Below, piece by piece: positions 5,047 to 43,187 of a DNA stretch of 44,559 bases; the first letter of the stretch is position 1; each line of letters begins with the position of its first letter. This stretch comes from Escherichia phage SM_A8: sequence record PP920553.1; one strand, given 5' to 3'. The notes below the pieces were generated by a model. The model was not told where the DNA came from, searched no databases, and was given only the letters and a program-made list of their open reading frames with translations. The position numbers and the translations under genes were made by a program.

Positions 5047-5811
5047 TTAGCGAGGAATGCCGCAAATCTCGTTGAGTGTTTTCACATCCAGCGCCACCGC
5101 CGTGGATTTTGGCTTGTCCTGGTAAGGGATGAATTGCTCAACTTCGGGCCATGCCTTGATCAGCTTCTTATCGGTATTGTGTATATCCAGCACGCCGGTA
5201 ACAGTTAGTTTGAACGCGTCATACTTAGCCCGCAACTCACGGCGGGCCTTGTCGTTACGGTCCAGGCGCTTGCAGAAATCGTGGTCCGCAGGGTAGTCTA
5301 TGCGACCGCGCGGAAGATATATCGGCAGCGCTTTCCCGTCCTCGTCGACTTCGCACACTGACGCTAACAAAATTTCCTCATACCCTGGCACAATATCGCC
5401 GAGATCGGGAGACAGTTTATTCATGTATTTATACTCCCAGTATCCGCGATGTACTCGGAATCGGTGTCCGTCTCCGCTCAATGACACGGTACGGACGTTT
5501 CCGCCTGCGTTGATTTCGAAAGTGGCGTCGTAAACGCTGCCTATACCATATGGGTTGTCGGCGTCATGTCTATACGTCGCCTTATTGGTGTACACACAGA
5601 CGCCGTACATCTGCGACGGGTCATAGCCGATTGCTTCAATGCGCTCACGTAGCTCGGCGAACGAATGAATGCCTTCCGGCATACAGTCCAGCGTAATGGC
5701 GTACGCCAGATTTCGAGAGTCCATCATGATTGATTTGGCTTCAGTCGCGATTTCGTGGTCGCGCAGTATGTTAGCCAGAATCTGATTTTTAATGTCTTTC
5801 GTCAGTCTCAT
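5047..5811 (-). CDS. hypothetical protein (leftward insert in structural module)
   Basis: 254-aa ORF, ATG with GAGGA RBS; opposite strand to all flanking structural genes; no motif recognised. Confidence 0.6.
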   Translation of the reverse strand: MRLTKDIKNQILANILRDHEIATEAKSIMMDSRNLAYAITLDCMPEGIHSFAELRERIEAIGYDPSQMYGVCVYTNKATYRHDADNPYGIGSVYDATFEINAGGNVRTVSLSGDGHRFRVHRGYWEYKYMNKLSPDLGDIVPGYEEILLASVCEVDEDGKALPIYLPRGRIDYPADHDFCKRLDRNDKARRELRAKYDAFKLTVTGVLDIHNTDKKLIKAWPEVEQFIPYQDKPKSTAVALDVKTLNEICGIPR

Positions 5812-5851: not shown

Positions 5852-6166
5852 TTAGTTGAATTTGATGTTGCCACCGGTGGAAGTTAAGCGGGCACATACA
5901 GCTTCAACGGCATCGACGCACATGAAATCGTTAAAGGCTTCGACCAGGGCGTTTATGAAAGATGCCGGAACCAGGCCGCAAGCCGGATTATCGAATGTTG
6001 CGGAGTTGATCGCCGCTTTTGCCGCTTCGGAAGCATTCATGCTCTGGCACAGATTCAGCGCTTCCGCGTTACGCATTGCGTGAAAGGTAAAGGTATTCGC
6101 TACGGTAGTTTTATTGAAACGGGCCATTGCGGCGTCTACTGGAGTTGCTACGGTCATGTTAGTCAT
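5852..6166 (-). CDS. hypothetical protein (leftward insert in structural module)
   Basis: ATG at 6166 with GAAGGAAA RBS (track ORF 5852..6226 starts at an upstream TTG); no motif recognised. Confidence 0.5.
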   Translation of the reverse strand: MTNMTVATPVDAAMARFNKTTVANTFTFHAMRNAEALNLCQSMNASEAAKAAINSATFDNPACGLVPASFINALVEAFNDFMCVDAVEAVCARLTSTGGNIKFN

Positions 6167-6201
6167 TTTGTTTTCCTTCATATCTCTGTTGGTGTGCAAC
6201 C

Positions 6202-6231
6202 AATATAATGCAACCAACATACGCAATGCAA
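6202..6231 (-). promoter_or_regulatory. sigma70-like promoter for leftward two-gene insert
   Basis: minus-sense TTGCAT-N18-TATATT; overlaps two GCAACCAA 8-mers; the 21 nt from the -10 onward are identical to the promoter at 39991-40011. Confidence 0.45.
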
Positions 6232-6238
6232 GCGAATT

Positions 6239-6266
6239 TTGCGATTATTTTTATCGCTGATAATAT
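6239..6266 (+). promoter_or_regulatory. sigma70-like promoter upstream of scaffold/capsid genes
   Basis: TTGCGA-N16-TAATAT about 55 nt upstream of scaffold start. Confidence 0.4.
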
Positions 6267-6320
6267 TAAGGCGTGAAGTCAAGCGGGTGGCCCGCTTTGC
6301 CACAATCCCAGGGGGATAGC

Positions 6321-11771: not shown

Positions 11772-12090
11772 AAGCGGGACAGGCGGGACGTCCCGTTTTG
11801 TCCCGCCTCTGTAAAACTGCATATCTACTCACTTCCACTGCATAAACTCAAAACGGGACAAGCGGGACGTCCCGTTTTGTCACGCCCTGTAAATATGCAT
11901 ACCTATGCAGATTTCGTGCATAAACCAAACGGGACAAAAAGCGGGACAAACAAGGGGCGGGACAAAGCGGGACAGCACCCCAGTCCCGCCAGTGCTGCCG
12001 CGGGGTTTAGCCGATCGGGACAGGCGGGACAAAGCCCAGTCTTTCAGACTAGACGGGGGTCAATGGCCCCCCTCGTCTGAGACTGAATAA
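11772..12090. repeat. GCGGGACA repeat array region, including 173-bp element copy A (11918-12090)
   Basis: at least 10 direct CGGGACA/CGGGACG copies plus inverted GTCCCGCC copies; two ~80-bp tandem units (11772-11917) then a 173-bp element ending in a GC-rich hairpin; colinear copy at 39640-39812. Confidence 0.7.
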
Positions 12091-22267: not shown

Positions 22268-22295
22268 ATATTACACCACTCAACCAGGATTGCAA
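22268..22295 (-). promoter_or_regulatory. sigma70-like promoter for the lipoprotein gene
   Basis: minus-sense TTGCAA-N16-TAATAT; the -35 is part of an 8-mer copy (22292-22299). Confidence 0.4.
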
Positions 22296-22316
22296 CCAAT
22301 TTACGAGGATTTAGCT

Positions 22317-24032: not shown

Positions 24033-24038
24033 ATAGAA

Positions 24039-24060
24039 GGGGCCATGCGGCCCCTTTTTT
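24039..24060. terminator. terminator hairpin between convergent tail fiber and leftward operon
   Basis: GGGGCC-atgc-GGCCCC followed by T6. Confidence 0.6.
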
Positions 24061-24634
24061 AGTTTGAGTTTTCCCAGTCCATTTTGCGCCGCACCAGCGG
24101 GCTTTCGTAATATTCCTTTCCTTCCACTTCCACCAAAGGCCAGTCGTTCACAATCACGTACGGCTCCGCGATATCCTCAATCACGCCGTGCGCGCTTTGC
24201 GGCACTAACGACACACCAACCAGGATAACACCGGCAACACGACGGGCGAGATACTCGCGAGCGCAGCGTGCCTCTACCAGTCCGCGACGGATGCCGCTGG
24301 TGGCCTTAACTTCGTAGGTCCATACGGCATCGATCACATGCTCCCTGAAGTCTGGTCCTGATTTAACCTTGCGCTTTCCGACCATGATGATATCTCCGCG
24401 ATCAATGGTATTGGCGCTAAACAGGCCGGTACGCATGAGCAAGCCTTGAGGGATACAACTGCGCCCGCCCGCCTGCCCCTCAAGGTACATGCCTGCAAAC
24501 ATTTCGCCCAGCACACCGACCAGTCGGCTTTGCTTGCACGCGTCGGACTTTAAGCGCCATTGGTCAAACTCGATGCTTGCTATCATTGCCGCTAGGTGGA
24601 ATTGTTTACCAGATATTTCGTATTCGCCGTACAT
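24059..24634 (-). CDS. hypothetical protein, possible PD-(D/E)XK-type nuclease
   Basis: 191 aa; weak E ... GDIIMV ... YEVK pattern; last gene of leftward module. Confidence 0.45.
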   Translation of the reverse strand: MYGEYEISGKQFHLAAMIASIEFDQWRLKSDACKQSRLVGVLGEMFAGMYLEGQAGGRSCIPQGLLMRTGLFSANTIDRGDIIMVGKRKVKSGPDFREHVIDAVWTYEVKATSGIRRGLVEARCAREYLARRVAGVILVGVSLVPQSAHGVIEDIAEPYVIVNDWPLVEVEGKEYYESPLVRRKMDWENSN

Positions 24635-24676: not shown

Positions 24677-25198
24677 TTATTTCAGTGCGCCAGTCACCAG
24701 TGTTTTTTCCATGTTGCGGAAGTCTTCCGGCGTCATGAGGATTTTAGACCCGTCTTCGCCAGTGAGCACAACCATAGGCTGGACGTCCTGGGCTACGACG
24801 CCGAAATTGGCGGCTTTGACAGTCTTGCCCGCAGATGCCGAAGGATGCCACGTTCCGCCGGTGGCGATGGGCCAGCCTTTAAGGCTGTCGTATTGCGCTG
24901 CCGTTGTATCGACCTGAATCTCATCATGCACGGTCATGTAAGACTCGCCCAGCAAGGCCGCATACGCCACCAGGTCGACGATATTGTCTTCCTGGTGCTT
25001 ACGGTGCTGGCGCACCAGCTTCAGGCAGATCAAGAAGGTCCAGGCTTCTTGCTCGGTAAGGTCGCGCCCGGTAAGCGCGTTAAACACGGCGGCGACCTGT
25101 TTAGCGCTGCGTTCTTCTTTCGCGTTGTCATAGCCGTTTTCTTTCCCGCGCTGTTCCATAGTGGTGGCGGCGTTTTTGCAGTATTCGTATGCTTTCAT
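24677..25198 (-). CDS. hypothetical protein
   Basis: 173-aa ORF downstream of the operator-bearing promoter at 25244-25273; no motif assigned with confidence. Confidence 0.55.
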   Translation of the reverse strand: MKAYEYCKNAATTMEQRGKENGYDNAKEERSAKQVAAVFNALTGRDLTEQEAWTFLICLKLVRQHRKHQEDNIVDLVAYAALLGESYMTVHDEIQVDTTAAQYDSLKGWPIATGGTWHPSASAGKTVKAANFGVVAQDVQPMVVLTGEDGSKILMTPEDFRNMEKTLVTGALK

Positions 25199-25243
25199 TA
25201 TGTGGTCCCTTTTAGCGTGTGGCCATATTGCCCCGACGCGTTA

Positions 25244-25273
25244 ACTATAGTGCAACCAACCTGTTGGTTGCAA
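25244..25273 (-). promoter_or_regulatory. sigma70-like promoter overlapped by 22-bp inverted repeat TGCAACCAA-cctg-TTGGTTGCA (operator candidate)
   Basis: minus-sense TTGCAA-N18-TATAGT; perfect 9-bp palindromic arms at 25251-25259 and 25264-25272. Confidence 0.45.
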
Positions 25274-25374
25274 GTGAATTTTGCAACGTTTATCGCATAT
25301 ATTTTCGGGACCAGATCGCTGCACGCCCGACGAATCGCCGCGATGTTCTTCTCGCAATCTTCAATGATGACCAG

Positions 25375-25731
25375 TTAAGACACGCCCGCGTAGCAGACCA
25401 TTTTGAACACGGCGCACGCCTTAAACTCTGGCGGCGGGGTGTCGTCCAGCATGTGGCGCATAAACAACCGGCCAACCGGGAAGACCTCCAATTGCTCGGC
25501 GGTGGTGTCCCAACATTCGCGCTGCCGGTTGGTCAGATACGCGATCTCGAAGCCTTGCTCTTTATACATGCGCAGTAGCGGCAGCATATCCATGTTCAGG
25601 TCTTCGCGGACGTGCGCTTTGTGCCACTTCGCCCAAAAGGTGGATTTCGTTTTTATCCCAGGCACCAGGTCGGCACGGGCATCGCTTGAACCGTTAATAA
25701 CGCCATCCAAATCGCAAATCAGTAATTTCAT
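25375..25731 (-). CDS. HAD-superfamily phosphatase-like protein (small)
   Basis: N-terminal MKLLICDLDGVI matches HAD motif I (DxDG); start overlaps upstream stop (ATGA). Confidence 0.5.
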   Translation of the reverse strand: MKLLICDLDGVINGSSDARADLVPGIKTKSTFWAKWHKAHVREDLNMDMLPLLRMYKEQGFEIAYLTNRQRECWDTTAEQLEVFPVGRLFMRHMLDDTPPPEFKACAVFKMVCYAGVS

Positions 25732-26523: not shown

Positions 26524-26552
26524 AATATAATGCAACCAATATGATTATGCAA
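26524..26552 (-). promoter_or_regulatory. sigma70-like promoter upstream of Dam gene
   Basis: minus-sense TTGCAT-N17-TATATT built from two GCAACCAA copies (26532-26539, 26549-26556). Confidence 0.4.
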
Positions 26553-26557
26553 CCAAT

Positions 26558-26881: not shown

Positions 26882-27588
26882 TTTAAATTTTCCTCGTTAA
26901 CCGCTATCGCGAAGCCGCGCGGGGTGAGTGAGCGGATTAATTTTGTACGAGCGGATTTACCACCGAGGCGACTATACTGCTTCGAGTACCCTTTTTCAAC
27001 GAAAACAGGTTTCTTCTCGGGCATACGGAAGCCGTTTCCAGTCCATAAGCAGGTCAGCTTCGGATATGAATCGCGGGCGTTGATGTATTCAGGGAAGAGC
27101 GGGTGTACGTCATCCTCTGGCAGATATCCGCCATACTCCCACGGGTCAAACGAGTGGTCCGGCTTACGCCACTGGGTGGAAAGCACGCTGCGCGGATTCT
27201 CAATCATATATGGCACTTCGAAGAAATCACCCAGGTAAGCTGCGATCTTCGCGGTGCGCACCGCCTTAAGCTGGAAGGCAGGGTCGCGGGCGCGTTTGCG
27301 CGGGAAAGCTGGCGCACCGCTAACCGCCAGATCCGTACACGGCGGGAATGCGTAAATGATATCCGGCGTGCCGAAATCGCCATTCATCGCGCGATCCACG
27401 AAGTCCAGGTCGATAAACTCATTACGATAGCGAATGCCGCGGCCATAGATCCGGTAGTCCAGGTAAGACCCGTGATCGGCTTCGGAGTAGTTGAAGCAAT
27501 AACACTTATGCCCCATCTCGGCAGCACGCTCAATCATCAAGCCGCTGCCGTCAAACAATGACCAGATTGTCATTTTAGCAATAGTCAT
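26878..27588 (-). CDS. cytosine-C5 methyltransferase-like protein (short)
   Basis: motif I-like LFDGSGL, motif IV-like FPPCTDLAVSG (PC motif), motif VI-like ENP; only 236 aa so the target recognition region may be minimal. Confidence 0.5.
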   Translation of the reverse strand: MTIAKMTIWSLFDGSGLMIERAAEMGHKCYCFNYSEADHGSYLDYRIYGRGIRYRNEFIDLDFVDRAMNGDFGTPDIIYAFPPCTDLAVSGAPAFPRKRARDPAFQLKAVRTAKIAAYLGDFFEVPYMIENPRSVLSTQWRKPDHSFDPWEYGGYLPEDDVHPLFPEYINARDSYPKLTCLWTGNGFRMPEKKPVFVEKGYSKQYSRLGGKSARTKLIRSLTPRGFAIAVNEENLK

Positions 27589-29489: not shown

Positions 29490-29768
29490 CTACGCGACCA
29501 ATTCAGCAACCAATAAATCACAGTCGGCTATGTTGTCGATAACGCGAACGTCAGCACCGCGGCGGGCCATTCGCTCGTGCTCACGTACCTGGTGCGGCTT
29601 CGGTTTTCCTCCGGGGCGCTTCACTTCGACGAACACTATTTTGCCGTTGATGATAATAATCAGGTCGGGCGCACCTGCGCGCCCCTCCCATGCCAGTTTT
29701 CGGCAGAATCCGCCTACCTCTTTCACCCGTCGCATCAGGTGATTTTGCACCTTGCCTTCTGGTGTCAT
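29490..29768 (-). CDS. VRR-NUC domain nuclease
   Basis: PD-(D/E)XK pattern: GAPDLIIII ... EVKRPGGK ... Q; ATGA-coupled to upstream HNH gene. Confidence 0.6.
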   Translation of the reverse strand: MTPEGKVQNHLMRRVKEVGGFCRKLAWEGRAGAPDLIIIINGKIVFVEVKRPGGKPKPHQVREHERMARRGADVRVIDNIADCDLLVAELVA

Positions 29769-33734: not shown

Positions 33735-33798
33735 TTTCCAATTCCTCATTTTCACATATATCGGGGTTATTATGAGCCACCCCGTTCGGCTTGGTTGC

Positions 33799-33827
33799 TA
33801 ATCTACTTGGTTGCGCCTGATCGGTCA
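33799..33827 (-). promoter_or_regulatory. sigma70-like promoter for SSB-like gene
   Basis: minus-sense TTGACC-N17-TAGATT with GCAACCAA copies in the spacer and just after the -10. Confidence 0.45.
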
Positions 33828-36679: not shown

Positions 36680-36708
36680 AATATTAGATTGGTTGCAGAA
36701 GGGAGTCA
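36680..36708 (-). promoter_or_regulatory. leftward early promoter (P2)
   Basis: minus-sense TTGACT-N17-TAATAT with a GCAACCAA copy in the spacer; about 190 nt upstream of first leftward gene. Confidence 0.5.
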
Positions 36709-36719
36709 ACAACTAATTT

Positions 36720-36754
36720 CAAAAAAAAAGCGCCGAGGCAAAATGCACCGGCGC
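36720..36754 (-). terminator. rho-independent terminator on minus strand
   Basis: minus-sense GCGCCG-13 nt loop-CGGCGC followed by T10 (plus strand A10 at 36720-36729). Confidence 0.55.
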
Positions 36755-36778
36755 TAACCAATAAGAGACAATGAGACG
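36720..36778 (-). ncRNA. candidate small RNA (~55 nt) from P1 to the terminator
   Basis: predicted transcript starts ~7 nt after the -10 and ends at the T10 tract; no ORF or RBS inside. Confidence 0.25.
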
Positions 36779-36784
36779 GGAATT

Positions 36785-36813
36785 ATTATTACACGCGTGC
36801 GCGCCCGTTTCAA
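36785..36813 (-). promoter_or_regulatory. leftward promoter (P1) directly upstream of the minus-strand terminator
   Basis: minus-sense TTGAAA-N17-AATAAT. Confidence 0.45.
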
Positions 36814-36825
36814 TATCCAAAGGAC

Positions 36826-36854
36826 TTGACACCTTGTGGTTTTAGGTGTAGTTT
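36826..36854 (+). promoter_or_regulatory. rightward promoter for HTH gene and primase
   Basis: TTGACA-N17-TAGTTT about 30 nt upstream of ATG 36886; divergent from P1. Confidence 0.45.
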
Positions 36855-36885
36855 CATTGGTCATTAACCAACAGGAGACTGAATT

Positions 36886-37215
36886 ATGAATATCAAAGAA
36901 GCAATTGAAGTGTTATCTAATGCAATCCGCGGCGAAGCGGGTAAATCCTGGTATTACACAAATGCGGTGGATACTCTGTTATTTGAAGTGTCCAGATTAT
37001 CGCGTGCTGAGAAGGAGCTTACCGCGAAGCTAGAATTGCTCAACGGCACGGCAGCAAGCAAGCTGCAAAAACACAATGAAGAAATGGAAGAATACAAAAA
37101 ACAGGTTATCCGTCTACGTGAGGAAGGTAAATCCTGGGCGATGATCGCCGAGTTGACCGGAATTAATCAGAGCACAGTGCGCTCCTGGGTACGCAATAAT
37201 AAAACTTCAAAGTAA
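36886..37215 (+). CDS. HTH DNA-binding protein (putative transcriptional regulator)
   Basis: 109 aa; C-terminal helix-turn-helix KSWAMIAELTGINQSTVRSWVRN; first gene of rightward operon. Confidence 0.6.
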   Translation: MNIKEAIEVLSNAIRGEAGKSWYYTNAVDTLLFEVSRLSRAEKELTAKLELLNGTAASKLQKHNEEMEEYKKQVIRLREEGKSWAMIAELTGINQSTVRSWVRNNKTSK

Positions 37216-39490: not shown

Positions 39491-39600
39491 TTTGTGCGCG
39501 CATTGGTTGCCGATATGGGAATTCCCATATCGCTAAAAGATTAAATTTTGCGCGCATTGGTTGCCATTTAGGGTGTTTTTATCCCGCCGCATTGGTTGCC
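39484..39600. repeat. iteron-like repeats and perfect 20-bp palindrome downstream of primase (origin-like region)
   Basis: three CGCATTGGTTGCC copies (39499-39511, 39553-39565, 39588-39600), inverted copy at 39872-39884; palindrome GATATGGGAATTCCCATATC at 39512-39531; AT-rich stretch 39601-39650. Confidence 0.5.
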
Positions 39601-39639
39601 GTGTAGTGTAAATATATTGAATAGTTATGCAGTTTTATT

Positions 39640-39812
39640 GCATAAAGTAAGCGGGACAAAAAGCGGGACAAACAAGGGGCGGGACAAAGCGGGACAGCAC
39701 CCCTGTCCCGCCACGGATGGCGCGGCTTCCAGAGGAGCGGGACAGGCGGGACAAACCCCAGTCTTTCAGACTAGACGGGGGTCAGTGGCCCCCCTCGTCT
39801 GAGACTGAATAA
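39640..39812. repeat. 173-bp repeat element copy B with GCGGGACA array and GC-rich hairpin
   Basis: colinear with 11918-12090, no indels; CGGGACA copies at identical offsets (12, 24, 40, 50, 98, 107); central ~26 nt diverged. Confidence 0.7.
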
Positions 39813-39967
39813 AATCCGGGGATTGCAAAATACACGGCAGCATGATGCTAAGTGCGGTCGTCGATGAACTAGGCAACCAATGCGGGTTGTATTATGCTGA
39901 GTGAAAAATGCGGTTTGCAGTTGCAGCAGATAGCGATCAACTTTTTCATGCGCGTGATTAATATTGG

Positions 39968-39996
39968 TTGCGTTCACCCCGGCACCATGCTATATT
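39968..39996 (+). promoter_or_regulatory. rightward early promoter
   Basis: TTGCGT-N17-TATATT; TTGGTTGC copies overlap the -35 and follow the -10; 21-mer TATATTGGTTGCACACCAACA matches the minus strand at 6187-6207. Confidence 0.5.
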
Positions 39997-40024
39997 GGTT
40001 GCACACCAACATGAGGACTGAACA

Positions 40025-40339: not shown

Positions 40340-40615
40340 ATGACCCGTAGGCGCGCAAAACAGCTTTCGTGGCATATTCCCCTGCATTGCATACGAATAT
40401 GGGCGGAGAATGCGGTTGAGGGTGAATCGGTATTCTGGTGCTATCGCGACGACGTAAAGCCGTTGACGCAGACTCGCTACTTGCACCAGTTCGCAGCGCA
40501 ACACGATTTCAGGGTGCGGACTTCCTTGCAACCAATGGGAATACGTATTACATTACGCCGGAAGCCCGCCGTTGAGCGGGTAGGCAAACACTGGAGACTG
40601 AGCAAATGTTCTTAG
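40340..40615 (+). CDS. hypothetical early protein
   Basis: 91-aa ORF. Confidence 0.45.
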   Translation: MTRRRAKQLSWHIPLHCIRIWAENAVEGESVFWCYRDDVKPLTQTRYLHQFAAQHDFRVRTSLQPMGIRITLRRKPAVERVGKHWRLSKCS

Positions 40616-43123: not shown

Positions 43124-43187
43124 ATTGCTTGACTCGCAACCAACACAGGGGCCATACTGCAACCAATCAACTGGAGGAGTAATCAAG

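What the first reader, a model, noticed from the sequence alone, without database searches (positions are those of the whole stretch)
25244..25273. Perfect inverted repeat TGCAACCAA-N4-TTGGTTGCA overlapping a promoter (operator candidate) for the terminal leftward module
The 22-bp site at 25251-25272 has perfect 9-bp palindromic arms and overlaps the -35 and spacer of a minus-strand TTGCAA-N18-TATAGT promoter upstream of genes 24677-25198 and 24059-24634. Dyad symmetry over a promoter is the classic repressor-operator arrangement, implying these two genes are regulated separately from the rest of the leftward operon.
Basis: seen in the sequence. Interest (0 to 1): 0.55.

Follow-up and report, generated by a model that had tools for sequence, protein, structure and literature searches.

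The report
Phage-wide 9-bp promoter box, paired
The palindrome is real, but it is two inverted copies of a 9-bp box (TGCAACCAA) that sits on about ten promoters of this E. coli phage and its relatives, so it most likely belongs to a genome-wide regulatory circuit and is not a private switch for two genes.

Summary
The window is a Dhillonvirus (HK578/SO-1-like E. coli siphophage). The 22-bp palindrome TGCAACCAA-cctg-TTGGTTGCA is at 25251-25272.

Three results change the interpretation.

1. The half-site is a dispersed element. GCAACCAA occurs 22 times in the window against 1.9 expected. Most copies are intergenic and overlap the -35, spacer or -10/+1 of about ten sigma-70-like promoters, in either orientation and as single, direct or inverted copies.

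2. In 16 of 17 relatives both arms are invariant while the 4-nt centre varies. In one lineage of about ten isolates, the inverted copy is replaced by a direct copy. Dyad symmetry and hairpin formation are therefore dispensable.

3. The box is syntenically conserved in four whole genomes. It is also enriched in relatives of about 74% nucleotide identity. It is absent from a sister clade, which also lacks the only recognisable helix-turn-helix (HTH) protein of the phage. That protein (36886-37215) is the first rightward early gene.

Best reading: these are operator boxes of a phage-encoded global regulator, probably a repressor and possibly this HTH protein. No binding or transcription was measured here. 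This is a new member of a known kind, of moderate interest.

The parts
25264..25272 (-). Box copy A (reads TGCAACCAA on the minus strand). With T25273 it forms the -35 hexamer TTGCAA. In relatives it encodes the last codons (C-N-Q) of the upstream phosphatase gene.
   Evidence: Invariant in 17 of 17 relatives, including synonymous positions.
25260..25263 (.). Variable 4-nt centre of the palindrome: CAGG here on the minus strand, TAGG in most relatives, where TAG is the stop codon of the phosphatase gene, and CCTA in two.
   Evidence: 0 of 4 columns invariant.
25251..25259 (+). Box copy B (TGCAACCAA on the plus strand, TTGGTTGCA in the direction of transcription). It occupies about -22 to -14 and ends 1 nt before the -10.
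   Evidence: Invariant in 16 of 17 relatives; replaced by a direct copy in L004.
25244..25273 (-). Promoter-like site P4: TTGCAA (25273-25268), 18-nt spacer, TATAGT (25249-25244).
   Evidence: 9 of 12 positions match. -10 invariant at 5 of 6 columns. TTGC tetramers inside boxes have a good -10 at 16-18 nt in 4 of 25 cases, against 1 of 563 for other TTGC tetramers.
25219..25234 (-). Conserved GC-rich hairpin (GGGGC-N6-GCCCC in relatives; one pair broken in the window) just downstream of the predicted start site, followed by the ribosome-binding site AAAAGGG (25213-25207).
   Evidence: Five conserved pairs but only one compensatory change, so RNA structure is not demonstrated.
24677..25198 (-). 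First gene downstream of P4: 173 aa, DUF6378 (phrog_9871), function unknown.
24059..24634 (-). Second and last gene of the unit: 191 aa, phrog_10558, no Pfam or PDB match.
24035..24058 (.). Bidirectional intrinsic terminator that closes the leftward unit and the convergent tail-fibre gene.
25261..25731 (-). Upstream HAD-type phosphatase gene. In this window it is interrupted by a premature TAA at 25375-25377.
6195..6217 (+). Two direct box copies (6195-6203, 6209-6217) over the spacer and the -10/+1 of minus-strand promoter P1 (6231-6202, TTGCAT-N18-TATATT). They lie about 25-45 bp upstream of the -35 of a plus-strand promoter-like site at 6239-6266.
22291..22299 (+). Single box that supplies the -35 (TTGCAA) of minus-strand promoter P5 (22295-22268), in front of the cor-like gene.
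26531..26556 (+). Two direct copies 17 bp apart over the -35 and spacer of minus-strand promoter P3 (26552-26524). PaulFeyerabend has three copies here.
29505..29513 (+). Box (AGCAACCAA) inside the 3' end of the VRR-NUC gene. It supplies the -35 of promoter P9 (29509-29481, TTGCTG-N17-TATAGT).
33791..33815 (-). Two copies (33807-33815 in the spacer, 33791-33799 at the -10/+1 edge) of promoter P7 (33828-33800, TTGACC-N17-TAGATT), in front of the SSB gene.
36689..36697 (-). Box in the spacer of promoter P8 (36709-36681, TTGACT-N17-TAATAT), the main leftward early promoter. HK578 annotators list the equivalent site as a promoter.
39503..40003 (.). Cluster of six boxes (39503-, 39557-, 39592-, 39872+, 39964-, 39995-) downstream of the helicase-primase gene. 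The last two lie over the -35 and the -10/+1 of promoter P2 (39968-39996, plus strand). The first four share the longer form CGCATTGGTTGCC. This may be an origin region.
40527..40535 (+). Box inside gene hyp54 that supplies TTGCAA for a weak internal promoter-like site P10 (40526-40554).
43135..43166 (+). Two copies (43135-43143 after the -35, 43158-43166 at the -10/+1 edge) of plus-strand promoter P6 (43129-43158, TTGACT-N18-CATACT).
36886..37215 (+). Candidate box-binding protein: 109 aa, first gene of the rightward early operon. The predicted structure has a long helix (22-79) followed by a C-terminal HTH (84-108). Residues 47-106 are almost invariant and the N-terminus is hypervariable.

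Best explanation
The palindrome is a pair of inverted copies of a genus-wide 9-bp regulatory box, T-GCAACCAA. At this site the two copies lie over the -35 hexamer and the -22 to -14 part of the spacer of an internal sigma-70-type promoter (P4). P4 can start transcription of the last two leftward genes. The box recurs at about ten other promoters of the phage, always inside the RNA-polymerase footprint (over the -35, abutting the -10, or across the -10/+1). It also occurs as a cluster next to the helicase-primase gene. The most likely mechanism is that a phage-encoded sequence-specific DNA-binding protein occupies each box independently, one DNA-binding domain per box, and so blocks promoter recognition. 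It would act as a global repressor or shut-off factor that co-ordinates these promoters. The best candidate is the 109-aa coiled-coil-plus-HTH protein encoded by the first rightward early gene (36886-37215). Its own leader carries a canonical box in more distant relatives, which suggests autoregulation. Shown here: the sequence, its conservation, the recurrence and positions of the box, and the co-occurrence of box and HTH gene. Inferred: that a protein binds, which protein it is, and the sign of regulation.
For: (1) The box is strongly over-represented: GCAACCAA occurs 22 times against 1.89 +/- 1.39 expected, and there are 11 exact copies of the 9-mer. About 17 of the 24 sites with at most one mismatch lie in the 8.5% of the genome that is intergenic. 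(2) The sites are syntenic in four complete genomes, with 19-22 copies each, while their flanks vary. (3) At the site in question, all 18 arm columns are invariant in 16 of 17 relatives, including synonymous codon positions. None of the 4 centre columns is invariant, and only 19 of 45 columns of the 5' UTR are. (4) The slur05 lineage of about ten isolates has two direct copies instead of the inverted pair, with the -35 and -10 preserved. This favours a modular box over a dyad or a hairpin. (5) Boxes overlap promoter-like sites: 7 of 22 copies fall in strict-consensus promoter footprints that cover 2.2% of the genome. TTGC tetramers inside boxes are followed by a good -10 at 16-18 nt in 4 of 25 cases, against 1 of 563 for other TTGC tetramers (p = 1.2e-5). 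By inspection the boxes occupy three positions, over the -35, at -22 to -14, and at -8 to +2, in either orientation. (6) Centre-to-centre spacing of paired copies ranges from 9 to 31 bp with no helical phasing. (7) The only HTH protein detected among about 30 small proteins scanned is the 36886-37215 product, which matches HTH_23 and Sigma70_r4_2 above their cut-offs. Its HTH half is almost invariant across all 24 homologues found among 5.8 billion proteins, while its N-terminus is not alignable. (8) In relatives of about 74% nucleotide identity (L049, L051), GCAACCAA is again among the three most frequent 8-mers, with 14 and 13 copies per 20 kb. It lies on TTGAC-type promoters and in the leader of the HTH gene itself. 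(9) Among 77 loci anchored on the DNA polymerase gene, every locus with polymerase identity of at least 81% has 3-9 boxes per 10 kb and, where the region is covered, the HTH domain. About 55 loci with polymerase identity of 66% or less have neither. (10) The palindrome is not found in E. coli. It has only 15 scattered hits in 596 Gb of bacterial genomes, about the chance level.
Against: No binding, transcription start or expression data exist for any Dhillonvirus in the literature I could search. The link between the HTH protein and the box rests on co-occurrence within a single clade, which is effectively one evolutionary event, and on the absence of other recognisable DNA-binding proteins. 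Small proteins without Pfam hits could equally be the binder. HK578 keeps the boxes although its HTH domain is only 44-48% identical. The sign of regulation is uncertain. Several box-bearing promoters have weak -35 hexamers (TTGCAT, TTGCGT) that are themselves part of the box, which is what an activator-dependent promoter would look like. A repressor acting on nearly all non-immediate-early promoters of a virulent phage needs a rationale, such as an early-to-late switch, that was not tested. Some promoters share long identical stretches: P1 and P2 share 21 nt. Part of the recurrence therefore reflects duplication of promoter cassettes.
Confidence: 0.55

Rival explanations
1. The boxes are positive promoter elements. 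An early phage protein, for example the sigma-region-4-like HTH protein, binds them and recruits or re-targets host RNA polymerase to middle and late promoters whose -35 hexamers are weak. This would resemble T4 MotA at MotA boxes or lambda CII at TTGC repeats.
For: In P2, P3, P5 and P9 the -35 is the TTGCNN inside the box, which matches only 3-4 of 6 positions of TTGACA, while the -10 is good. The candidate protein resembles ECF-type sigma region 4 and is expressed from a box-free consensus promoter (PR_IE 36826-36854). The copy at -22 to -14 ends exactly 1 nt before the -10 in five promoters, a precision that suggests contact with polymerase.
Against: Boxes also sit in the spacer or across +1 of promoters with near-consensus -35 TTGACT or TTGACC (P6, P7, P8), where an activator is neither needed nor well placed. 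Both orientations occur at the same position. Spacing and copy number vary from one to three copies, 9-31 bp apart. Activators normally need a fixed geometry.
Confidence: 0.2
2. The boxes are iteron-like binding sites of the replication initiator, either the HTH protein or the adjacent helicase-primase. The cluster at 39.5-40.0 kb is the origin, and the promoter-associated copies are secondary, coupling replication and transcription.
For: Six copies lie within 500 bp immediately downstream of the helicase-primase gene, next to other repeats (GCGGGACA) and a 20-bp palindrome. The HTH gene directly precedes the helicase-primase gene in all relatives.
Against: Most copies are dispersed singly or in pairs exactly on core promoter elements all over the genome. 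The clustered copies carry a distinct extended form (CGCATTGGTTGCC), and two of the six are themselves on promoter P2. No origin has been mapped.
Confidence: 0.1
3. One reading: a private, dyad-symmetric operator bound by a dimeric repressor that controls only the terminal two-gene module.
For: Perfect 9-10-bp arms overlap the -35 and spacer. The inverted arrangement with a 4-nt centre is kept in 16 of 17 relatives.
Against: The half-site is a 22-copy dispersed element. A viable lineage of about ten isolates has a direct repeat here. Other promoters of the same operon carry the same box.
Confidence: 0.05
4. The boxes bind a host (E. coli) transcription factor or nucleoid protein that the phage exploits. 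One example is CytR, whose octamer GTTGCATT occurs in direct or inverted repeats (from memory).
For: Some copies contain GTTGCATT exactly (6.2k, 26.5k). The boxes stay invariant although the phage HTH protein varies, as in HK578.
Against: The invariant part of the box is GCAACCAA. The CCAA lies outside the CytR octamer, and the positions matching its TT are not conserved. No exact palindrome occurs in E. coli among one genome for each of 185,579 bacterial and archaeal species. The box is absent from sister-clade phages of the same size and organisation whose hosts I did not check.
Confidence: 0.05
5. The palindrome acts as an RNA or DNA hairpin: an intrinsic terminator, an RNase site or a recombination signal.
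For: As RNA it folds at -11.7 kcal/mol, z = -3.1. The scan flags it as terminator-like on the plus strand.
Against: There is no U-tract on the transcribed minus strand, and nothing is transcribed rightward into it because the convergent fibre gene ends at the 24035-24058 terminator. The arms show no compensatory changes, only invariance. The slur05 lineage cannot form the hairpin: -4.1 kcal/mol for a different pairing.
Confidence: 0.03

Closest known systems
Phage P1 C1 repressor and its dispersed asymmetric operators (from memory; not tested here)
   Same: A short asymmetric site is repeated many times around the genome. It lies on promoters of many operons and occurs singly or as overlapping or inverted pairs, so that one protein co-ordinates scattered transcription units.
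   Different: P1 is temperate and C1 maintains lysogeny. Its operator is 17 bp (ATTGCTCTAATAAATTT). No C1 homologue was detected here. Dhillonviruses carry no annotated integrase or immunity repressor. Binding has not been shown here.
Mycobacteriophage L5 gp71 'stoperators' (from memory)
   Same: About 20-30 copies of a 13-bp asymmetric site lie in short intergenic regions across the genome, bound by a single HTH repressor.
   Different: Stoperators have one orientation relative to transcription and block elongation. Here the orientation is mixed, 12 forward and 8 reverse relative to local transcription by my count, and the sites lie on core promoter elements.
Classical dyad operators over promoters (lambda OR/OL, lac, LexA boxes)
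   Same: At this one site there is a perfect inverted repeat overlapping the -35 and spacer of a promoter.
   Different: Symmetry is not conserved (direct-repeat variant). The half-site functions as a stand-alone unit elsewhere, and the spacing between copies is not fixed.
T4 MotA boxes / lambda CII TTGC repeats (activator-dependent phage promoters; from memory)
   Same: A phage-specific sequence replaces or overlaps a weak -35 next to a good -10. The candidate protein has a sigma-region-4-like HTH.
   Different: MotA and CII sites have a fixed position and orientation. Here the boxes also lie in spacers and across +1 of consensus promoters, in both orientations.

Membership tests
Sigma-70-type promoter | -35-like and -10-like hexamers separated by 16-18 nt upstream of a gene | tested here: met
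   TTGCAA-N18-TATAGT at 25273-25244, 9 of 12 positions match. The gene start is at 25198 with the ribosome-binding site AAAAGGG.
Sigma-70-type promoter | Hexamers and spacing conserved in relatives | tested here: met
   The -35 is invariant and the -10 is invariant at 5 of 6 columns in 17 sequences. The spacer is 18 nt, or 17 nt in the direct-repeat variant.
Sigma-70-type promoter | Experimentally mapped transcription start | not testable with these tools
   No Dhillonvirus transcript-mapping data found.
Dyad-symmetric repressor operator | Inverted half-sites at fixed spacing overlapping a promoter | tested here: met
   9-bp arms, 4-nt centre, over the -35 and spacer.
Dyad-symmetric repressor operator | Symmetry maintained wherever the site is conserved | tested here: not met
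   L004/slur05 and about nine further isolates carry two direct copies at the homologous position. Other sites are single or direct with spacings of 9-31 bp.
Dyad-symmetric repressor operator | Cognate dimeric DNA-binding protein shown to bind | not testable with these tools
   There is only a candidate HTH protein with a predicted long helix.
Dispersed asymmetric operator regulon (P1 C1 type) | Many copies of one asymmetric site scattered over the genome, far above chance | tested here: met
   22 copies against 1.89 expected, syntenic in four genomes.
Dispersed asymmetric operator regulon (P1 C1 type) | Sites coincide with promoters of several operons | tested here: met
   Promoters P1-P10.
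Dispersed asymmetric operator regulon (P1 C1 type) | Homologue of C1 (or of L5 gp71) encoded | tested here: not met
   Pfam, PHROGs and NCBIfam scans of about 30 proteins give only a generic HTH_23/Sigma70_r4_2 protein. Foldseek finds only generic HTH folds, E >= 0.37.
Stoperators (L5 gp71 type) | Single orientation relative to the direction of transcription | tested here: not met
   12 forward and 8 reverse among the 20 non-chance copies (positions, gene map).
Intrinsic terminator | GC-rich hairpin followed by a U-tract on the transcribed strand | tested here: not met
   On the minus strand the hairpin is followed by CUAUAGUUAACG. Only the untranscribed plus strand has a weak T-run. The hairpin is lost in L004.
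MerR-type spacer operator | Dyad centred in an over-long (19-20 nt) spacer, with a MerR-family protein present | tested here: not met
   The spacer is 18 nt, or 17 nt in the variant. No MerR-family hit appeared in any protein scan.
Host CytR operator | Octamer GTTGCATT as the conserved unit | tested here: not met
   The conserved unit is T-GCAACCAA. The positions equivalent to the terminal TT of the CytR octamer vary among sites.
Replication-origin iterons | Cluster of repeated initiator-binding sites next to the replication genes | tested here: inconclusive
   Six boxes lie in 39503-40003, downstream of the helicase-primase gene, but most copies are dispersed on promoters and no origin has been mapped.

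The most novel reading that the evidence does not exclude
A stand-alone, sigma-region-4-like HTH protein with a long coiled-coil helix and a hypervariable N-terminus is the master regulator of a virulent siphophage. It would read a 9-bp box placed at three discrete positions of host sigma-70 promoters (over the -35, abutting the -10, across +1), in either orientation, and in a cluster at the replication origin. It would so switch about ten promoters and perhaps couple transcription to replication. Such a regulatory logic has not been described for lytic coliphages of this group.
Probability: 0.25. Interest if true: 0.6.

Novelty: new member of a known kind. Interest (0 to 1): 0.42.

Why it matters
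Dhillonviruses (SECphi18, the BASEL phages Bas14-18, HK578) are now routine tools in anti-phage defence research and phage engineering, yet their transcription programme is uncharted. A single conserved box marking about ten promoters, plus a candidate regulator, gives three things. First, a testable map of the transcription units. Second, a handle for engineering, because the promoters and an orthogonal operator/regulator pair can be reused. Third, an explanation of why module boundaries, where genes are gained and lost between isolates, coincide with these boxes. For this particular site it changes the expectation: the DUF6378 gene and its neighbour should follow the same temporal control as the replication and modification genes and should not form an independently regulated module.

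Tried and rejected
(1) RNA hairpin or terminator. Folding gives -11.7 kcal/mol, but there is no U-tract on the transcribed strand, no compensatory changes, and the hairpin is absent in the slur05 lineage.

(2) Known RNA families. There were no Rfam matches in the whole window.

(3) Host operator. A pattern scan of one genome for each of 185,579 bacterial and archaeal species gave 15 scattered, unrelated hits, none in E. coli. Each hit locus holds only the two or three copies that the palindrome itself supplies. The single non-Dhillonvirus IMG/VR hit is an AT-rich terminator in a jumbo phage.

(4) Literature. Searches for the motif in both orientations, for Dhillonvirus or HK578 promoters, and for transcriptomes returned nothing relevant. 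I read the Tmn, Avs2/Ksap1, Ioannina and BASEL papers for regulatory information and found none.

(5) Identifying the binder by fold. The AlphaFold2 model of the HTH protein has mean pLDDT 83.5, but Foldseek against PDB gave only generic LuxR/GerE, transposase or resolvase HTH matches (E >= 0.37). A PDB profile search gave nothing interpretable.

(6) Function of the two downstream genes. They match DUF6378 and phrog_10558 only, with no PDB sequence relatives.

(7) Covariation in the 5'-UTR hairpin. Five conserved pairs show only one compensatory change, so this is inconclusive.

(8) MerR-like, sigma-54, NtrC, IHF and CytR resemblances. I considered these from memory and rejected them because spacing or the conserved positions do not fit.
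Full report
**What the window is.** The 3.5 kb around the finding is 90-93% identical to 166 phage records, almost all of them Escherichia phages of the genus Dhillonvirus: SO-1, Oekolampad, SECphi18, HK578 and others. The window is collinear with Oekolampad, whose annotation I transferred by tblastn. The finding lies at the distal end of the leftward replication and modification operon, between a HAD-type phosphatase gene and two genes of unknown function. The first is 24677-25198, DUF6378. The second is 24059-24634, phrog_10558. A bidirectional terminator at 24035-24058 closes the unit.

- TGCAACCAACCTGTTGGTTGCA is at 25251-25272. It can be read as 9-bp arms around a 4-nt centre, or as 10-bp arms with 2 nt between them.
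- The consensus scan independently reports a minus-strand TTGCAA-N18-TATAGT site at 25273-25244.
- One arm therefore includes five of the six -35 positions, and the other ends one base before the -10.
- A perfect inverted repeat of this size is not rare by itself. The window has seven against about 1.9 expected. The weight of the finding has to come from other evidence.

**Conservation at the site.**
- I collected the homologous region from 14 IMG/VR contigs, found through the DUF6378 protein and so not selected for the palindrome. I added Oekolampad, SECphi18, HK578 and PaulFeyerabend.
- In 16 of 17 distinct sequences all 18 arm positions are invariant. None of the four centre positions is invariant, the base between the arm and the -10 varies, the -10 is invariant at 5 of 6 positions, and only 19 of 45 positions of the 5' UTR are invariant.
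- In most relatives the TAG at the centre of the palindrome is the stop codon of the phosphatase gene. The upstream arm encodes its last three codons, and these never vary even at synonymous positions.
- The exception is informative. In L004 (phage slur05) the downstream arm is replaced by a direct copy, giving TTGCAACCAA-taa-TGCAACCAA-c-TATATT. The -35 and -10 are kept and the spacer is 17 nt.
- This variant is present in about ten isolates: slur05, slur06, JLBYU60, JohannBuxtorf, TH11, TH13, McMelon, Pandora71. It cannot form the hairpin.
- The conserved unit is therefore the 9-mer, not the dyad.

**The 9-mer is a dispersed element.**
- TGCAACCAA occurs 11 times exactly, and its core GCAACCAA 22 times, against 1.89 +/- 1.39 expected from dinucleotide-preserving shuffles.
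- About 17 of the 24 sites with at most one mismatch lie in the 8.5% of the genome that is intergenic.
- The intergenic regions inside the structural-gene operon (7.0-12.2 kb) have none apart from one 1-mismatch variant.
- The copies are syntenic in the window, Oekolampad, HK578 and PaulFeyerabend, with 19-22 per genome, while the flanking bases differ. PaulFeyerabend has three tandem 17-bp units where the others have two.
- In two more distant relatives of about 74% nucleotide identity, GCAACCAA is again among the three most frequent 8-mers, with 14 and 13 copies in 20 kb.

**Where the boxes sit.** Read in the direction of the downstream gene, the boxes fall on sigma-70-like promoters:

| Promoter | Coordinates (strand) | Hexamers | Box position |
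|---|---|---|---|
| P1 | 6231-6202 (-) | TTGCAT-N18-TATATT | spacer and -10/+1 |
| P2 | 39968-39996 (+) | TTGCGT-N17-TATATT | -35 and -10/+1 |
| P3 | 26552-26524 (-) | TTGCAT-N17-TATATT | -35 and spacer |
| P4 (this site) | 25273-25244 (-) | TTGCAA-N18-TATAGT | -35 and spacer |
| P5 | 22295-22268 (-) | TTGCAA-N16-TAATAT | -35 |
| P6 | 43129-43158 (+) | TTGACT-N18-CATACT | after the -35 and -10/+1 |
| P7 | 33828-33800 (-) | TTGACC-N17-TAGATT | spacer and -10/+1 |
| P8 | 36709-36681 (-) | TTGACT-N17-TAATAT | spacer |
| P9 | 29509-29481 (-) | TTGCTG-N17-TATAGT | -35 |
| P10 (weaker) | 40526-40554 (+) | TTGCAA-N17-TACATT | -35 |

- The boxes occupy three positions: over the -35; at about -22 to -14, ending one base before the -10 (P1, P3, P4, P7 and the slur05 variant); and at about -8 to +2. 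Each position is used in either orientation.
- In strict-consensus terms, 7 of 22 boxes fall in promoter-like footprints that cover 2.2% of the genome.
- TTGC tetramers inside boxes are followed by a good -10 at 16-18 nt in 4 of 25 cases, against 1 of 563 for all other TTGC tetramers (p = 1.2e-5).
- The two divergent consensus promoters at the early switch region lack a canonical box. These are PR_IE at 36826-36854 and PL_IE at 36813-36785.
- Six boxes are clustered at 39503-40003, downstream of the helicase-primase gene.

**Candidate binding protein.**
- Pfam, PHROGs and NCBIfam scans of about 30 small or unannotated proteins found one DNA-binding domain. It is the 109-aa product of 36886-37215, the first gene transcribed from PR_IE and immediately upstream of the helicase-primase gene. 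It matches HTH_23 at 29.3 bits and Sigma70_r4_2 at 29.1 bits, both above their cut-offs.
- Only 24 homologues exist among 5.8 billion proteins. Residues 47-106 are almost invariant, while the first 45 residues cannot even be aligned.
- AlphaFold2 (mean pLDDT 83.5) predicts a 58-residue helix followed by the HTH. Fold search gives only generic HTH matches.
- Between the window and the relatives of about 74% nucleotide identity, the HTH half is 83-87% identical. That is as conserved as the large terminase and the DNA polymerase, and more conserved than the neighbouring helicase-primase at 66-68%.
- In those relatives a canonical box lies in the leader of the HTH gene itself, as TATATT-N9-GCAACCAA-...ATG. 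In the window the equivalent place holds a degenerate pair, CATTGGTCATTAACCAACAGG at 36855-36875.
- I examined 77 loci anchored on the DNA polymerase gene. All those with polymerase identity of at least 81% have 3-9 boxes per 10 kb and, where the region is covered, the HTH domain. About 55 sister-clade loci with polymerase identity of 66% or less have neither.
- This co-occurrence fits the hypothesis, but it amounts to a single phylogenetic event.

**Mechanism.**
- What is shown: a 9-bp sequence under strong DNA-level constraint, repeated on core promoter elements throughout the genome, in any orientation and with variable spacing, and restricted to the clade that encodes one particular HTH protein.
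- What I infer: a protein binds each box on its own, one DNA-binding domain per box, possibly two domains tethered by the long helix. The variable spacing of 9-31 bp and the mixed orientation rule out a rigid dimer.
- Every box lies inside the region covered by RNA polymerase, including the spacers and start sites of promoters with near-consensus -35 hexamers. Occlusion, that is repression or timed shut-off, is therefore the most economical reading.
- I put about 0.8 on the boxes being a binding site for a trans-acting protein. Given that, I put about 0.6 on repression, and about 0.45 on the 36886-37215 protein being the binder.
- The main rival is activation at promoters with a weak -35. That fits P2, P3, P5 and P9 but not P6-P8.
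- An origin-iteron role for the 39.5-40.0 kb cluster may coexist with either reading.

**Comparison with known systems.**
- The arrangement works like the dispersed asymmetric operators of phage P1 C1, or like the L5 gp71 sites. Both comparisons are recalled from memory and not tested here.
- It is not a member of either family. No homologous repressor is present, the orientation is mixed (unlike stoperators), and annotated Dhillonvirus genomes list no integrase or immunity repressor.
- It fails the test for a classical dyad operator, because symmetry is not conserved. It also fails the test for an intrinsic terminator.
- I found no description of the box in the searchable literature.

**Verdict.**
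There is an operator-like site on a real-looking promoter. It is not a private dyad operator, however, and it does not imply separate regulation.
- It is a new member of a known kind, of moderate interest (0.42). It is useful mainly because these phages are widely used models without a transcription map.

Noticed in passing
whole window (e.g. 1473, 2295, 3110 ... 44472): The octamer ACGGCARC occurs 51 times against 4.9 +/- 2.2 expected. 39 copies are on the plus strand and 12 on the minus strand. They are spread roughly every kilobase through coding regions regardless of gene orientation. ACGGCAAC is also the most frequent 8-mer in most of the sister-clade phage loci that lack the GCAACCAA box. 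It looks like a separate strand-polar genome-wide signal, perhaps Chi-like, a primase site or a packaging-polarity signal.
   Followed up: partly
25375-25377: The HAD-type phosphatase gene upstream of the palindrome has a premature TAA where Oekolampad and SECphi18 have GAA. This truncates it to 118 of 156 codons. The normal TAG stop at the palindrome centre is also changed to CAG. It is either a pseudogene in this isolate or a sequencing error.
   Followed up: partly
39644-39753 and 11781-11880; 11916-12077 vs 39617-39799: A second repeat family, GCGGGACA(A), occurs in at least seven copies between the helicase-primase gene and hyp53, and again upstream of the tape-measure gene. The annotated small ORFs there (hyp18, hyp52) are 67% identical paralogous stretches made largely of these repeats, so they may be non-coding repeat regions and not genes.
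   Followed up: no
39512-39531: A perfect 20-bp palindrome, GATATGGGAATTCCCATATC, lies between two CGCATTGGTTGCC boxes just downstream of the helicase-primase gene, in the possible origin region.
   Followed up: no
36721-36813 (minus strand): The leftward consensus promoter PL_IE (TTGAAA-N16-TAATAAT) is followed about 30 nt later by a strong intrinsic terminator, GCGCCG...CGGCGC-T9. It would therefore make a short leader RNA unless antiterminated. The 36-aa 'hyp49' ORF annotated in relatives overlaps both early promoters and is probably not a gene.
   Followed up: partly
5852-6166 (minus strand): A 104-aa ORF with no family match is inserted, relative to Oekolampad and PaulFeyerabend, directly next to the P1 box pair. 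Genes are likewise missing or extra next to the P3 boxes: the hyp33 and hyp34 genes of Oekolampad are reduced to a fragment here. Mosaic boundaries coincide with box-bearing promoters.
   Followed up: partly
6239-6299 (plus strand): A fully conserved promoter-like site, TTGCGA-N16-TAATAT, is followed by the hairpin GCGGGTGGCCCGC-TTTG just upstream of the scaffold and capsid genes. It lies a few tens of bp downstream of the P1 box pair. It may be a late promoter with a leader terminator, which would suggest antitermination control.
   Followed up: no
36886-37023 (codons 1-46 of the HTH gene): The N-terminal 45 residues of the HTH protein are so variable among 24 homologues that they cannot be aligned, while residues 47-106 are almost invariant. 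This pattern suggests diversifying selection or domain swapping on the N-terminus.
   Followed up: partly
5047-5811 (minus strand) and 24677-25198 (minus strand): Two box-controlled genes belong to 'nucleotide modification associated' families: Nmad5 (E = 2.8e-55) and DUF6378. They add to the Dam-like and Dcm-like methyltransferases of the same phage. The function of this set was not explored.
   Followed up: no
L019 (PaulFeyerabend) 26950-26991: The 17-bp unit TATGATTA-TGCAACCAA is present three times in tandem in PaulFeyerabend, against twice in the window, Oekolampad and HK578. In HK578 one of the two copies carries a mismatch (TTGGCTGCA).
   Followed up: yes
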